From assembly GCA_964016885.1 (NCBI GenBank), contig OZ024748.1:1736001-1800000 (forward strand): a stretch of DNA of 64,000 nucleotides, in the 5' to 3' direction. Made by a program: the position numbers and the translations under genes. Shown here in pieces: positions 4,880-61,150 of this stretch; the first letter of the stretch is position 1; each line of letters begins with the position of its first letter. This DNA is from Eledone cirrhosa (taxonomy: Eukaryota). Under the pieces are notes generated by a model. That model had not been told where the DNA came from, ran no database searches, and was given only the letters and a program-made list of their open reading frames with translations.

Positions 4880-5490
4880 TATGTAAAAGGTAAACAGAAA
4901 TAACAACACAATCGGTACAGTATATGGAATGTATATATTAGGTTAACGCTTGATATAGCAGGAAGAGAGTCTTAACGTTTCGGACGCTAGTCCTTCATCA
5001 GAAGAAAGAATGAGAAATAAAATAGATTAAGGGGACGGGCGGGTTGGAATTGGAAAAATGTCTTTAGATAAAGTTTGTGTGTGTGTGCGTGTGTGTTATT
5101 ACGTACGAAGCTAAGAAGAAATGTGTGTGTATATGTGAGTAAAAGAGTGTGTGTGCATGTAAGTATGAAGCTATGAGCAAAGAGAAAGCGATAGGAATCT
5201 AGGGGTGTGATAATGGATGGGGTATTAGAGAAATTGGGGAGGTGATTTGAGTCCAAGAGGGGAATAGGACCCAAGACGGTGAATCAGACTTTGTTCAGTC
5301 CTGGTGCGCGAGGCCTGTGATCCATGATGTAAAAGGACACCCAGGACTGAAACATGTAGGGAAGAATAACCAGGAGAACAGAAATGACGGGCGACAGGAG
5401 TATCCAAACCGAGTTGTATGTCCCTCAAAATGGTCCGCCATACGGCGTCCCGTTTGTCTGATATATAAAGACCTACAAAGGGTACACCGG
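4880..5490 (-). mobile_element. Penelope-like element 3' fragment (GIY-YIG endonuclease C-terminus plus pseudo-LTR)
   Basis: ORF 5225-5521 has DTPVARHFCSPG...RTRTEQSLIHRLGSYSPLGL, a typical PLE endonuclease end. A hammerhead motif lies downstream on the same strand. Confidence 0.85.
4970..5005 (-). ncRNA. Minimal type I hammerhead ribozyme
   Basis: Minus strand UCUU-CUGAUGA-A-GGAC(UAGC)GUCC-GAAA-CG-UU-AAGA. Stem I UCUU/AAGA, stem II GGAC/GUCC, palindromic AACGUU stem III. Confidence 0.85.
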
Positions 5491-5714
5491 GGGGCATATA
5501 TGTATATATATAAATTTTCATCGATATAATCGTAATCTACACCTTCAAAAACGTATGCAAAATCTCATTAAAAAATGCTTTATTAAGAGTTCCGGGAAAA
5601 GAAAGACAGGTGACGCGGGGACACTAAACTGTAGTTATGTCTAATAATTTAACACTATATTTAGATTCCGCCAAAAGACTCTATTAACCCTAGGTCGGCT
5701 TGAAGGAGAAGAAT

Positions 5715-5806
5715 TGCCATGACGTCACTGAGGCTTCGGCCGTTGATTGGTCATTTGTCATCTGTTCCTTACAGTTTCGAAGAGGAATTTGTCAAAGAAA
5801 GGTAAA
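5715..5806 (+). promoter_or_regulatory. Candidate Pol II promoter with short first exon
   Basis: Perfect CRE TGACGTCA at 5720-5727, reverse CCAAT (ATTGG) at 5746-5750, and donor-like AAG|GTAAAA at 5801/5802. CpG density falls downstream. Confidence 0.5.
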
Positions 5807-7388
5807 AAAAAAAAAAAAAGAATCTTTCTCAACAACTATGTCTTTTGTTATTATTTACCCCAAAGAAATGTATTGAGAGAATATATTGCACAAACGAAGT
5901 ATAACGAAAGTATATAATTGTAAGTTTTTAATGATTTCTTAAAATTTAATCAAAACCTTGTTTTTATTGAACAAAAGTTACTAAAAGATGCTCTTGCCAA
6001 AAAAGAAACTAAAGGTTCCTAAGACGTCCAATATATATATATATGTGTGTGTGTGTGTGTGTGTTACACCAGGTATTTTTGAGCAAGATTTCACACTGCT
6101 TCTTCTGCTGGGAGTTGTGACATAAGTCTGTCTTAAGCCAGAAGGATTGTTAGGCTGGTGCTTTTCTCAGTTTCATGGCGTAAAGCGACTGAGAGTACAA
6201 GACTCCCCCACTGGACAGGATGCCAGTTATTGCTGGTACTCATTTTCAGTTGAGTATACTGGAGCAACATGAAATGAAGTGTTTTACTCATGAACACAAC
6301 TGCAGCCCAGCCCAGGAATCAAACCCATGGCATTATGATCACATGTCCAATACCCTTACCACTAGGCCGCCACACACCTCCTCAATAGTTGTGACCAGTA
6401 GATAATATTGGCACCAATGGAAAAGATTGTTTCTTTTGTCCAATCTGACCAACAGGTTTCCTCCCAGCCTCCTACCATCAAATTCACTCACAAGGATTTG
6501 GTCAGTTGAGGCTACAGAAGAAGTTGCCCAAAATCAAATGATTAAGAAAATATGATTGAGTGTGAGTCATATATCATTATTTTTCCAATGATCTTTTTTG
6601 CTTTCTTTTCTTTGTCACTGCAATTATACTTATATCACCAATACAAATAAAGAAATCAACAACTATTCCTTTTATCGCCAATATATATCTGACTAAATGA
6701 TTGAACAAAGAGCAATCAAATATTTCTAAACATCTGATCCTGTATCAGAGTAGACTGGAGATGTTCCAATATGAACGAAGAACTAAGACACAAGGAATTA
6801 TGCCAAATAAATCATTGAGACTTTATATGATAGTGTATCTTGTTAATGTTAGTATTATTTTCTTAAAAAGCATAAAAAGTACACAGGATCAAAAGGTTAT
6901 TATATACATCCATACACATATATACATACTTATAGGTTTGTTTGTGAGAGTATATATATATATATCGTCTAACCCATACTAGCGTGGAAGATGGACGTTA
7001 AACGAAGATGATGATGATGATGATATATATATATATATATTCATATATTTTATCTGATGAGGACGTACTGAAAAAACAACACAGTATCTTCAATATATCT
7101 ATAATAAAGCATATATTTTGATTATGTGAATATCTTCATTTGTTAGTATTTTGAATAATATATATAAATATATATATATATAAATATATGTATATATATA
7201 AATATATATATATATATATTTATATATATACATATATATATATAAATATATATAAATATATATATATATATATATATATATATATATATATATATATATA
7301 TGTATATATTTGTATATATGTATATATATATACAAATAAAATTAGTATTGGTGCTCCAACGTAGCATTATACACAATACACATATATA

Positions 7389-7471
7389 CAGGATGTTTAT
7401 AAAAAACATTTCTGCTGAGACTAAGGATGCATAACGGTGGTCACAACCTTAAAAAATTCATAAACATCCTG
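7389..7471. mobile_element. Short Tc1/mariner-type MITE
   Basis: TA-CAGGATGTTTAT ... ATAAACATCCTG-TA. Confidence 0.75.
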
Positions 7472-7653
7472 TATATATATATATATATATATATATACAT
7501 ATATATATATATATAAATATATTATATATATACATACATATATATATATATATATATATATATATATATATATATATATATATATATATATATATATATA
7601 TATATATATAAATATATATATATACATATATACATATATATATACATATATAG

Positions 7654-58857: not shown

Positions 58858-59040
58858 AATAATTGTTTCTACTTTAGGCACAAGGCCAGCAATTACCCAG
58901 TGTATTACTGGTACTTTATTTTATCGACCCCGTAAGGATGAAAGGCAAAGTTAACCTCTACGGGATTTGAACTCAGAATGGAAAGGGCTGTAACTCTTTG
59001 CGTCAAAGCATGGCGTCCGACCCTCTACCGATACTGCCAA
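58858..59040 (-). mobile_element. SINE family A
   Basis: Near-consensus copy. Confidence 0.85.
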
Positions 59041-60615
59041 ATGTTCAATGGTTTTTGTTGTCTATTATAGATGGTTTGAGTATTTGCATTTGGAGTGTTC
59101 CTCTCTAAGGTACAAGCCTGGGCAATCTTTTTTAGTGGAAGATTAGCAGTTTCCCATGCATGCAACATCTCTCCTCTTCTTTCCACACTACCAATGTTGT
59201 AGGAAGACAATACTGTTAAAACTTGAGACTAATATCATCGCTAGGGTGCCACAAGAGCCAGACACTGCAAGATATCTTGTACAACACTTTAACAATTGTA
59301 CCAATCTACTGCCCTGGACTGGTATTTTGTTTATTGACTCTGAAAATTAAACTTGACCATGATAGAAATTGAACTCTTAGTGCAAAGAGAACAAATACTG
59401 CAAAACATACTGCCTAACACTTTAACTGCTCTGCCATCTTTGAATAATGATATTTGATGGAAAATAATGGTAATGTTTGATGTATTAGTCACGGTTGTTT
59501 AAACAATGAGCAAGCTTCTGTGAGGTCATTCAACCCGCTCAAAATAACTGCCAAATCTACTTCAAATTATAGTTTACCTCATTAAAAAAGGAAAGGATAC
59601 CTTGAATAATGTAATTATAGATACTCTGTCTAAAAACAGATGGGATAGTCATGATTGGTAAGTTTTGATCATATCTCTACTTGATCATAGCTGACCTAAG
59701 ATTATACTATAACAACAACAACAACCTACAAGACATTATTCTAGCTAGTTGAAAATTGATGTCATTTGTGGCATCATGGTTGAATAATAGTTAGTAAGAG
59801 ACAGGGCATCCAGCTGTAAAAGTTGGATACTTCATCTATTCATATGCAAATATCTTGTTTAATAAAGATGATGTTATCTTCACTTGAAATAAAGAGCTAG
59901 ACAAAATTATAATGTTCACCAATATTGTAATATTCTGTAATATCTCTATGATAGGCATAGGTTTGGCTGTATGGTTATGAAGTTTGCTTTGCAGCCAAAT
60001 AATTTCAGGTTCAATCCCATTGGGCAGCATCTTGGGCAAATGTCTTCTACTATAGCTTCAGGTTGATCAATACCTTTTCAGTGGAGTTTGGTAAATGGAA
60101 ACTATGCCTATCATGTAATAAACCATCATCATCATCATCATCATTATCCTCTTCCTCCTCCTCCTCATCATCATCATCATCATCATCATTTTATGTCTGT
60201 TTCCCTGCTGGCATTGGTTAAGGTGGCCACAAACGAAAGGAAAAAAAAGACAGCAACCAACACAAAGTGGAAGTTTAGAATATTGAAATGCATCTGAAAG
60301 ATTTGAAAGTATTTATGGCTATGAAACCATTTGGTAATGCAAAAATAAGTAAAATTATATATAATATATATATATATGAGAGAGAGAGAGGTGTATATGT
60401 GGGTTAGTTTGTGTTTCTGTTAACACTGCTTGGAAAACTATCCTATATGTTTGCACTTCAACAAATAGGGATCAATAAAAAAGCACTAGGAAGAAATAAG
60501 TACTTTTTATGGACTAAAAACCCTTGAAGGCAGTTCTCCAGCATGGCCACAGTTTAGTGACTGAAATCAGTAAAAGAATATATATGTATTATATATATAT
60601 ATATATATATATATA

Positions 60616-60917
60616 TAAGTTATGTTGGTACCACAACATCCAGTCCGAAACAAACGAGGTCGTGTAGGTGTCACGACAAAAAAACACAGTCCACGCTGTA
60701 ATGTGGCCGTGTAGGTAAGACGGTAAAAACCTCCCAGTCCACACTGTAAACGTGGTTGGTGTTAGGAAGGGCATCAGCCGTAGAAAACCCACCAGACAGT
60801 CCTATACGAGCAGGACAACCAATCTTGCCTCAAGTGGGAAAACTCCCGTCCAAACCCATGCAAGCGTGGAAGATGGACGTTAAACGATGGTGATGGTGAT
60901 GGTGATGACGACGACGA
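60616..60917 (+). mobile_element. SINE-like repeat family B
   Basis: Homology to 24105-24385. Confidence 0.8.
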
Positions 60918-60919
60918 TC

Positions 60920-61150
60920 TTCAGTCACTGAAGAGATCACAGAATGTGTGACGAAAGAACTTTAACAATATATAAACAATCATCTGGTTGTGGAACCAAC
61001 CAACCGGAAATTTTTAAATTCCTAAATTTATAAATTTATTATAATAAATTGAAGTGAAAGCAACTGGTGCGTGTGTTTCTTATTGGCAACATGACCCTCC
61101 CAAAGTATAACAATATCGGTTTCAAATCACGTTTTCAGATAAAGAATCTT
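60920..61150 (+). mobile_element. PLE-like pseudo-LTR with decayed hammerhead
   Basis: GTCA-CTGAAGA-GATCACA..TGTGAC-GAAA-GAAC-TT-TAAC at 60924-60966. Contains a 37-bp segment also found at 18801 and 34381. Confidence 0.55.

What the first reader, a model, noticed from the sequence alone, without database searches (positions are those of the whole stretch)
4970..60966. High density of small hammerhead ribozymes from several unrelated families, mostly in (TA)n tracts
Seen: six motifs with core, stem I, stem II and a palindromic or near-palindromic stem III (4970, 17446, 17644, 23612, 35399, 37630), plus decayed ones (7054, 7725, 36061, 60924). Most sit in 150-700 bp non-coding pieces bounded by (TA)n. 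Known: PLE pseudo-LTRs and non-LTR retrozymes carry minimal hammerheads that cleave as dimers. Inference: this genome hosts a microsatellite-associated population of non-autonomous ribozyme-bearing elements, and any inside transcripts could cleave host pre-mRNA.
Basis: partly seen in the sequence, partly recalled or inferred. Interest (0 to 1): 0.75.

Follow-up and report, generated by a model that had tools for sequence, protein, structure and literature searches.

The report
Hammerheads on truncated Penelope retrotransposon ends
These are hammerhead-shaped RNA motifs at the ends of broken copies of Penelope-type jumping genes, a known arrangement that is typical of this whole genome; cutting is untested, but one very abundant family stops at a fixed point inside the motif, which likely shows how these elements are copied.

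Summary
The motifs are real: 8 descriptor hits against 0.3 in shuffles, in nine repeat families with hundreds to tens of thousands of copies. They are mostly not retrozymes. Five families (4970, 17446/17644, 23612, 7725, 60924) were traced to Penelope-like elements with RT/GIY-YIG ORFs, three of Hydra type. The motif lies in the terminal repeat, 55-200 nt before a fixed end abutting (TA)n; 5' ends are ragged. This is the published pattern (PMC4209133). The window is not dense for this genome: 6.7 hits per 64 kb in arbitrary DNA, roughly 200,000-300,000 genome-wide. Only 4 of 10 sites keep a canonical core and helices, none has a same-strand tandem partner, and copies decay neutrally, so host pre-mRNA cleavage is unsupported. 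The notable part is family 7725: 35 of 47 short copies stop within 11 nt inside helix II, giving half-ribozyme palindromes, whereas 0 of 19 long copies stop there on a second pass. This scan already noted that stop site elsewhere in this genome (e1-9525717). No RNA data were available.

The parts
4882..5501 (-). Family A: 5'-truncated PLE (CX4CxxC + CCHH C-terminal EN type) with GIY-YIG fragment (5231-5501), partly deleted 3' UTR and HHR; 3' end runs into ATGT/(TA)n
   Evidence: 91-94% identical to L008
4970..5005 (-). Minimal type I HHR A: C3-G8 core, extra A before helix II, 4-bp helices I and II, palindromic helix III; predicted cut between 4974 and 4973
   Evidence: 4,407 exact core matches genome-wide, reversed control 0
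7041..7162 (+). Family E 3' end with decayed HHR (GAAA box lost); intact inverted pairs in L008 and L378
7652..7854 (+). Family F palindrome: tailed arm (7713-7854) and inverted tail-less arm, both ending about 40 nt upstream of the cut site, inside helix II; catalytic 5' half absent
8306..8477 (+). Family A 3' end from which the whole HHR is deleted between short direct matches
17395..17514 (-). Family B inverted arm (Hydra-type PLE 3' end), HHR with U3-A8 core at 17484, 8-nt palindromic helix III, bulged helix I
17610..17745 (+). Family B direct arm, HHR at 17650 with U4C; the shared sequence continues past 17745 as a tail
23565..23970 (-). Family C 3' end (young Hydra-type PLE, copies 96-99% alike), HHR with U3-A8 core at 23654, near-palindromic helix III, GUC triplet
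30573..30728 (+). Family F remnant: tail-less inverted arm to about -42 plus tail only of the direct arm
35346..35540 (-). Family D 3' end, HHR with C3-G8 core at 35452, U.U at base of a long helix II, palindromic helix III; no ORF found upstream
35889..35984 (+). Decayed family F direct arm
36030..36142 (-). Family G, HHR-like fold with U4A core at 36094, U.U-closed 3-bp helix II, 4-5-bp helix III
37546..37760 (-). Family A2 3' end, HHR at 37661 (U4C); same helices II and III as A, different but paired helix I
44179..46350 (.). Broken Hydra-type PLE: C-terminal RT and GIY-YIG EN on minus (44182-45392), N-terminal part on plus (about 45540-46348); no HHR found by the descriptor
60918..61112 (+). 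Family H 3' end of an RT + C-terminal GIY-YIG PLE; HHR core at 60928, 6-bp helix II, one helix I mismatch; tail follows

Best explanation
The motifs are hammerhead-ribozyme folds in the terminal repeats of nine repeat families, five of them traced to ORF-bearing Penelope-like retrotransposons, and the copies in this window are short 5'-truncated insertions at (TA)n that are likely inert by-products of target-primed reverse transcription. Shown: family structure, ORF links, fixed 3' ends downstream of the predicted cut site, (TA)n junctions, inverted arms with a tail on one side, neutral decay. Inferred from published PLE work: the GIY-YIG endonuclease nicks AT-rich DNA and the RT starts at two internal sites of the element RNA, one for each target strand, which gives the tailed and tail-less arms; most cDNAs stop early, so only the ribozyme-bearing end is inserted. 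The ribozyme probably serves the master element (processing of precursor RNA, possibly into circles), not the inserted fragments. For family F (7725) I infer two templates: linear transcripts that begin about 41 nt upstream of the cut site, inside helix II, from which RT runs off to give the palindromes, and circular or multimeric RNA that gives the long copies.
For: ORF links: A, EN contiguous with the HHR in L008 and in the window; B, RT and EN upstream in L094; C, HHR in both direct repeats 5.35 kb apart around an RT-EN ORF in L091 and L092; F, intact 719-aa ORF from its ATG between HHR repeats 3,118 bp apart in L205; H, RT and EN upstream. 3' ends: all 38 family A matches, found from 30 core-anchored loci and others, extend 69-100 nt past the cut site; F ends at +19/20 and +100. 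5' ends of 60 downstream-anchored A copies are spread from +10 to -607. Divergence in 44 A copies: core 23 of 510, helices 35 of 761, flanks 164 of 3,329. Helices differ in sequence between families but keep pairing, and the 3-8 pair is C-G in A, D, E, H and U-A in B, C, F. F: 41 of 64 tail-anchored copies end in the last 30 nt of helix II, 35 of the 47 that reach -35 stop by -45, 45 of 64 carry an inverted arm; 0 of 19 ORF-spanning units (15 loci) stop there, Fisher p 8e-9 / 2e-7; summed contig depth rises about 20-30-fold at the same place in runs X1 and X4. PMC4209133 reports single truncated min-HHR copies, opposite-strand pairs 100-700 bp apart and the U3-A8 core; PMC11167929 reports two internal RT starts that define the tail.
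Against: No ORF link for D (none in 34 loci, up to 1.7 kb of shared upstream sequence), E (not searched) or G; A2 rests on 1 of 30 loci. No cleavage or RNA evidence. 5' ends do not pile up at the cut site (A: 4 of 56, p 0.30; F: 1 of 64), so nothing here shows cutting in vivo. The fixed stop is seen in F only; family A has none (highest 11-nt stop rate 8 of 32). Predicted minimum-energy folds give the hammerhead junction only for the full F motif and none is more stable than about z -2.8. Clade names rest on motifs, not on a tree.
Confidence: 0.88

Rival explanations
1. They are non-autonomous retrozyme-like elements that move as small ribozyme-made circles using PLE enzymes in trans.
For: Family D has PLE-type ends but no ORF in 1.7 kb; a 299-bp-spaced array of 7 F repeats exists on C2 (spacing only); two G copies lie 290 bp apart on one strand in L362; bioRxiv 10.64898/2026.07.22.740005 argues that retrozymes derive from PLE repeats; earlier scan notes describe such arrays in this genome.
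Against: No window motif is in a tandem array; five families lead directly into PLE ORFs; 5' ends are ragged rather than unit-length.
Confidence: 0.12
2. The F stop at -41 is a first-pass block by RNA structure or bound protein at the apical hairpin of helix II on a continuous (circular or multimeric) template, not a transcript start.
Against: RT passes the GC-richer helices I, III and lower II before stopping; the modal end is the A of a TYAGT word that resembles an initiator (motif recalled; PMC2377424 shows an internal Inr/DPE-type promoter for Penelope).
Confidence: 0.4
3. The short F palindromes come from central deletion or snap-back copying of longer inverted insertions, or from self-amplification of a short element.
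For: The palindrome centres vary from copy to copy; long inverted repeats are unstable (general knowledge).
Against: 7 of 13 arm-less copies that reach -35 also stop by -45; in 5 loci (L238, L244, L245, L252, L253) the tail-less arm holds sequence that the tailed arm lacks, which needs two cDNAs; fold-back joints at the same place occur in read-derived contigs.
Confidence: 0.15
4. Inserted hammerheads act on host RNA (cleavage of pre-mRNA or read-through transcripts).
For: 4 window copies keep a canonical core; roughly 70-105 motifs per Mb would place many in introns; the F parent has a 5-6-bp helix III that could work as a monomer.
Against: No host exon recognised; no selection on core bases; only 18 of 60 unbiased A copies are intact; minimal HHRs were inactive as monomers (PMC4209133) or needed the element protein (PMC11167929).
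Confidence: 0.07
5. The motifs are chance matches in an AT-rich sequence.
For: One of 8 descriptor hits is a low-complexity artefact; Rfam finds none.
Against: 0 of 200 shuffles reach the observed count; each site belongs to a repeat family with the motif at a fixed distance from its end.
Confidence: 0.01

Closest known systems
Minimal type I hammerheads of metazoan PLEs (Cervera and de la Pena 2014, PMC4209133; parts 1-2 of 4 read)
   Same: Short helix I, palindromic helix III, extra base before helix II (A, A2, H), U3-A8 core variant (B, C, F), location in the terminal repeats, mostly single truncated copies, opposite-strand pairs.
   Different: Estimated 70-105 motifs per Mb with a different, relaxed descriptor, against about 2,000+1,300 in Schistosoma and 9,000 in Xenopus per genome in that paper; F has a stable helix III and a 60-nt helix II; D and G close helix II with U.U; G has U4A throughout.
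Hydra clade of C-terminal EN+ PLEs (Craig et al. 2021, PMC8557442; section 11 and passages read)
   Same: Families B, C, F and the broken element at 44179-46350 have RW(K/R), DKT, CxCX5C, no CCHH, CxxC and CxH, an HHR (B, C, F) and (TA)n insertion.
   Different: Units of 3.1-5.35 kb against 'generally <3 kb'; RWR in C and F; that section names no cephalopod family; no tree built here.
Poseidon element PAc of Anolis (Frangieh et al. 2024, PMC11167929; parts 1-2 of 4 read)
   Same: Two fixed RT start sites downstream of the HHR that define the tail; AT-rich targets; template not cut at the HHR.
   Different: No fixed 5' stop inside the ribozyme is described in the parts read; tails here are 80 nt (F) to about 145 nt (D).
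Metazoan non-LTR retrozymes (PMC7229834, passages; bioRxiv 10.64898/2026.07.22.740005, parts 1-2 of 5)
   Same: Type I HHR, low GC, thousands of copies, kinship with PLE repeats.
   Different: Window copies are single truncated ends, not tandem units, and five families lead into ORFs.
Inverted, one-side-tailed pLTR structures of rotifer Penelope (PMC3846280, passages) and the internal promoter of Drosophila Penelope (PMC2377424, passages and section 15)
   Same: Inverted truncated repeat at the 5' side, optional tail, palindromes at the junction, promoter inside the repeat.
   Different: In F the whole insertion is reduced to about 200 bp and both arms end at one site inside helix II; in D. 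virilis the start lies upstream of the intron that ends at helix I.

Membership tests
Minimal type I HHR of PLEs | Conserved core (3-8 pair, U4 G5 A6, A9, GAAA, U16.1 H17) with helices I and II | tested here: met
   4 of 10 window sites fully; family copies with the motif: A 24/30, B 14/30, C 26/30, D 29/30, A2 8/30, H 16/20; F parent
Minimal type I HHR of PLEs | Palindromic or minimal helix III suited to dimer formation | tested here: met
   A, A2, B, D, E palindromic; C with G.U pairs; H two pairs with a 2-nt loop; F and G have a monomer-type helix III instead
Minimal type I HHR of PLEs | Located in the terminal repeats flanking an RT-EN ORF | tested here: met
   Both repeats in C and F, downstream of ORF in A, B, H; not shown for D, E, G
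Minimal type I HHR of PLEs | Self-cleavage (dimeric or protein-assisted) | not testable with these tools
   No assay; 5' ends not enriched at the cut site
Hydra-clade PLE (B, C, F) | C-terminal GIY-YIG EN with CxCX5C linker, no CCHH, CxxC and CxH | tested here: met
   Read in the translations of L092, L094, L205 and window 44182-44697
Hydra-clade PLE (B, C, F) | RWK and DKT motifs | tested here: met
   RWK in B and the window element, RWR in C and F; DKT in C, F and the window element, not seen in the frameshifted B copy
Hydra-clade PLE (B, C, F) | Insertion into (TA)n | tested here: met
Hydra-clade PLE (B, C, F) | Placement in the RT tree with Hydra references | not tested
   No reference sequences held; no tree built
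Neptune/Nematis-type PLE (A, A2, H) | CX2-5CxxC linker and CCHH in a C-terminal EN | tested here: met
   CX4CxxC and C-C-H-H in H; in A the second C between GIY and YIG is a stop in L008; A2 from one decayed locus. The two clades were not told apart
Non-LTR retrozyme | At least two consecutive tandem units, each with a complete HHR | tested here: not met
   No HHR lies in a tandem array in the window
Non-LTR retrozyme | Non-coding, no ORF of its own | tested here: not met
   Five families lead into PLE ORFs; inconclusive for D, E, G
Non-LTR retrozyme | Unit-length linear and circular RNA | not testable with these tools
   No RNA holder listed

The most novel reading that the evidence does not exclude
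Family F records two templates of one Penelope-like element. Its promoter fires inside helix II of the ribozyme, so the linear mRNA carries only half a hammerhead at its 5' end; RT primed just downstream runs off that end and leaves tens of thousands of 200-bp half-ribozyme palindromes, while full-length and tandem copies come from ribozyme-made circles on which RT meets no end (0 of 19 second-pass stops). This would be genomic evidence for the long-proposed rolling-circle route of PLEs, in a genome with some 200,000-300,000 hammerhead motifs.
Probability: 0.3. Interest if true: 0.72.

Novelty: new member of a known kind. Interest (0 to 1): 0.42.

Why it matters
Two things add value. First, the load: about 70-105 motifs per Mb (95% range 38-160) is above the per-genome counts in the papers read (126,247 in axolotl, over 6,000 in Acropora, about 5,000 in Mytilus, PMC7229834; 9,000 in Xenopus, PMC4209133), although descriptors differ. 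Second, what the PLE hammerhead is for and how pseudo-LTRs arise are open questions (PMC8557442, PMC11167929). Family F gives an intact young ORF, a hammerhead with a stable helix III and a sharp first-pass-only stop, so the question of linear against circular template can be tested directly.

Tried and rejected
Rfam: 0 matches at gathering score; the 150 of 261 E-value matches listed were microsatellite-driven; none for the full F motif or the 600-bp repeat beyond chance. Pfam does not recognise the Hydra-type ORFs. Pile-up of 5' ends at the cut site: suggested by eye (about 6 of 33), not upheld by alignment (4 of 56, p 0.30). A general start-site pile-up in family A near -100 to -136 (core-anchored and so biased) vanished in the unbiased sample (6 of 60). 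A retrovirus-like strong-stop jump for F (my note) was dropped: it predicts stops on the second pass too, and 0 of 19 were seen. 'Nematis-like' for B, C, F was replaced by Hydra after reading PMC8557442 section 11. Subfamily comparison of the two F arms failed (regex caught only 4 of 60 loci). The DNA alignment of F copies included mis-cut rows and was not used. Scan for scrambled-order hammerheads in the window: none (crude). RNA: no RNA holder listed; runs X1, X4, X5, X6 are contigs of unknown kind. No earlier notes near the window or matching the 7652-7850 sequence. Paper searches for a fixed stop inside PLE ribozymes or a cephalopod hammerhead census listed nothing that describes either; only open-access papers were searched and no supplements were read, so supplements of PMC8557442, PMC4209133 and PMC13282606 may hold such families.
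Full report
Setting. The window is G000:C8:1736001-1800000 of a 3.0-Gb animal genome, 34.5% GC with 104 (TA)6+ tracts. Earlier scan notes call the genome a cephalopod; I did not test that. No host exon was recognised among 169 ORF candidates; Pfam gave only RVT_1 fragments at 1313-1879 and three sub-cutoff matches. An intronic position is not excluded.

Observation. All ten sites hold hammerhead-derived sequence. A strict descriptor gave 2 hits against 0.05 in 100 local shuffles. 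Four sites have a canonical core and helices (4970, 17446, 23612, 35399), two carry U4C (17644, 37630), 36061 carries U4A as do 20 of 20 copies shown, 60924 has a helix I mismatch found in 3 of 20 copies, 7054 has lost GAAA and 7725 lacks the catalytic 5' half. Ten of 11 hand-placed element ends lie within 15 nt of (TA)4, against 11% of positions. The same descriptor found 21 hits in 20 arbitrarily placed 10-kb stretches (14 with U4 by my count, two or three probably spurious), 6.7 per 64 kb. The window is therefore typical of the genome; the extrapolation is 70-105 per Mb, about 200,000-300,000 motifs, with a Poisson range of 38-160 per Mb that clustering will widen.

Families. Each site belongs to a dispersed family: 4,407 exact core matches for A with 0 for the reversed control; 757, 1,215, 2,085, 1,327, 4,572, 71 and 1,435 first-look candidates (not copy numbers) for B, C, D, A2, F, G and H; E was met only as a neighbour. 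The best 20-30 loci of each were fetched. Copies have fixed 3' ends about 55-200 nt past the predicted cut site, running into microsatellite, and variable 5' ends. Longer copies lead into PLE ORFs. A: a GIY-YIG C-terminus is contiguous with the HHR in L008 and in the window. B: RT and EN upstream and an inverted copy at the 5' side in L094. C: the HHR segment is a direct repeat 5.35 kb apart around an RT-EN ORF in L091 and L092. F: an intact ORF between two HHR repeats 3,118 bp apart plus an inverted copy in L205, and head-to-tail arrays of 3.5-kb units. H: RT and EN upstream in L276, L278, L279, L292. A2 has an EN 1 kb upstream in 1 of 30 loci. D has two 3' ends and inverted arms but no ORF in up to 1.7 kb of shared upstream sequence. 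G often lies inside a Helitron-like element (the Helitron end motifs are recalled). B, C, F and the broken element at 44179-46350 meet the motif definition of the Hydra clade (PMC8557442 section 11); A and H have the CX4CxxC and CCHH motifs of Neptune/Nematis. No tree was built.

Structure conservation. Helices differ in sequence between families and keep pairing; A and A2 share helices II and III but have different paired helices I; the 3-8 pair is C-G in A, D, E, H and U-A in B, C, F. This is conservation among master elements. Among inserted copies there is none: in 44 of 60 downstream-anchored A copies that cover the ribozyme, divergence is 4.5% in the core, 4.6% in helices and 4.9% in flanks; 18 of 60 are intact. 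5' ends are not enriched at the cut site (A 4 of 56, p 0.30; F 1 of 64), and no core-anchored A copy ends there at its 3' side. The template was thus uncut or re-ligated at the ribozyme, in line with PMC11167929 (parts 1-2 read).

Family F. A 21-nt anchor in the 3' half has 39,108 exact matches (both arms counted, and only those followed by A/T); the tail anchor has 16,518; a pattern spanning the whole ribozyme has 1,696 (more bases are fixed, so the ratio is rough). For the first 64 places of the tail-anchored list, 41 have their 5' end in the last 30 nt of helix II, 7 keep the whole ribozyme, and 35 of the 47 that reach -35 stop by -45, with the mode at -41. Forty-five of 64 have an adjacent inverted arm that starts at the tail-less end and mostly ends at the same place; in five loci that arm is longer than the tailed one, which needs two independent cDNAs. 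Seven of 13 arm-less copies that reach -35 also stop there. Read-derived contigs show fold-back joints at -44 to -37 and a 20-30-fold depth step there in X1 and X4 (summed contig depth is a poor measure and subfamily divergence may add to the step). In the first 30 of 237 copies in which the repeat continues into the 5' UTR, 21 units span at least 1.5 kb of ORF; 19 of them (15 loci, one being the reference) reach -35 and none stops by -45 (Fisher p 8e-9 by unit, 2e-7 by locus). Of the other nine, whose matches end at +162 to +918, five reach -35 and three stop at -37 or -38. A single linear template with a strong-stop jump is disfavoured. The -41 base is the A of a TYAGT word that resembles an initiator (consensus recalled; PMC2377424 shows an internal promoter in Penelope), but it also lies in a conserved apical hairpin. 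Family A shows no such stop. I noted the stop and the start-site idea; one search then showed that the scan had reached the same idea on another piece of this genome (e1-9525717).

Mechanism. Shown: anatomy, ORF links, ends, decay. Inferred: endonuclease nicking at (TA)n, two internal RT starts (one per strand), early termination, and a ribozyme role confined to the master RNA, possibly circle formation as proposed in PMC4209133. Cleavage of host RNA is unlikely: minimal motifs need a partner or protein, the only same-family pair in the window (B) is on opposite strands, and copies decay neutrally.

Comparison and verdict. Single truncated PLE hammerheads, opposite-strand pairs and the U3-A8 core are published (PMC4209133), as are (TA)n targeting and HHRs in Hydra elements (PMC8557442). 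An Octopus vulgaris repeat annotation lists active Penelope families and does not mention ribozymes (PMC13282606, passages). The finding is a new member of a known kind. Its interest lies in the genome-wide load and in the first-pass-only stop of family F, which makes the template question testable. Interest 0.42.

Noticed in passing
window 18869-19470 (-), 28559-29163 (+), 29304-29910 (+), partial 34653-34841: Young 600-bp non-coding repeat, 95-97% alike, flanked by TA/ATGT tracts, two copies in tandem; no Rfam match beyond chance.
   Followed up: partly
window 44179-46350: Hydra-type PLE with its 5' part inverted against its 3' part and a gap between them; no hammerhead found at its 3' end.
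   Followed up: partly
window 8306-8477; several rows: Family A copies with the ribozyme partly or wholly deleted between short direct matches.
   Followed up: partly
L186, L188, L195, L203 (around the match); L362, L372, L376: Family G (U4A hammerhead-like fold) is carried inside a Helitron-like non-autonomous element and made up 4 of 21 background hits.
   Followed up: partly
G000:C2:356030076-356031890: Seven F-family repeats spaced 299 bp apart, a possible retrozyme-like array derived from the F terminal repeat; sequence not inspected.
   Followed up: no
G000:C1:91476607-91487254 (L389-L392), C1:437200356-437210969, C2:320551590-320558698: Head-to-tail arrays of three or four full-length 3.5-kb F units.
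   Followed up: partly
L362, L363, L374, L375, L376: At least five further hammerhead families not present in the window, some as opposite-strand pairs.
   Followed up: no
window 17105-17377 and 18185-18456: Inverted pair of a SINE-like repeat (97% alike) bracketing the family B palindrome.
   Followed up: no
window 25629-26080 and 24443-24868: Palindromic arrangements of SINE-like repeats (80% and 66% self-complementary).
   Followed up: no
window 2500-2916 and 8948-9173: Near-perfect minisatellites, 46 bp x 9.1 and 31 bp x 7.3.
   Followed up: no
window 1313-1879 (+): Decayed LINE-type reverse transcriptase fragment (RVT_1, below cutoff), interrupted by a TA tract.
   Followed up: no
L218 and L255; L032 and L038: Copies of families F and B with C3 opposite A8, a mismatched core pair.
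   Followed up: no
L356 3244-7417: An LTR-type retroelement inserted into a family D copy.
   Followed up: no
window 18805-18837 (-) and 34381-34413 (+): 33-bp stubs of the family H 3' end next to TA tracts.
   Followed up: no
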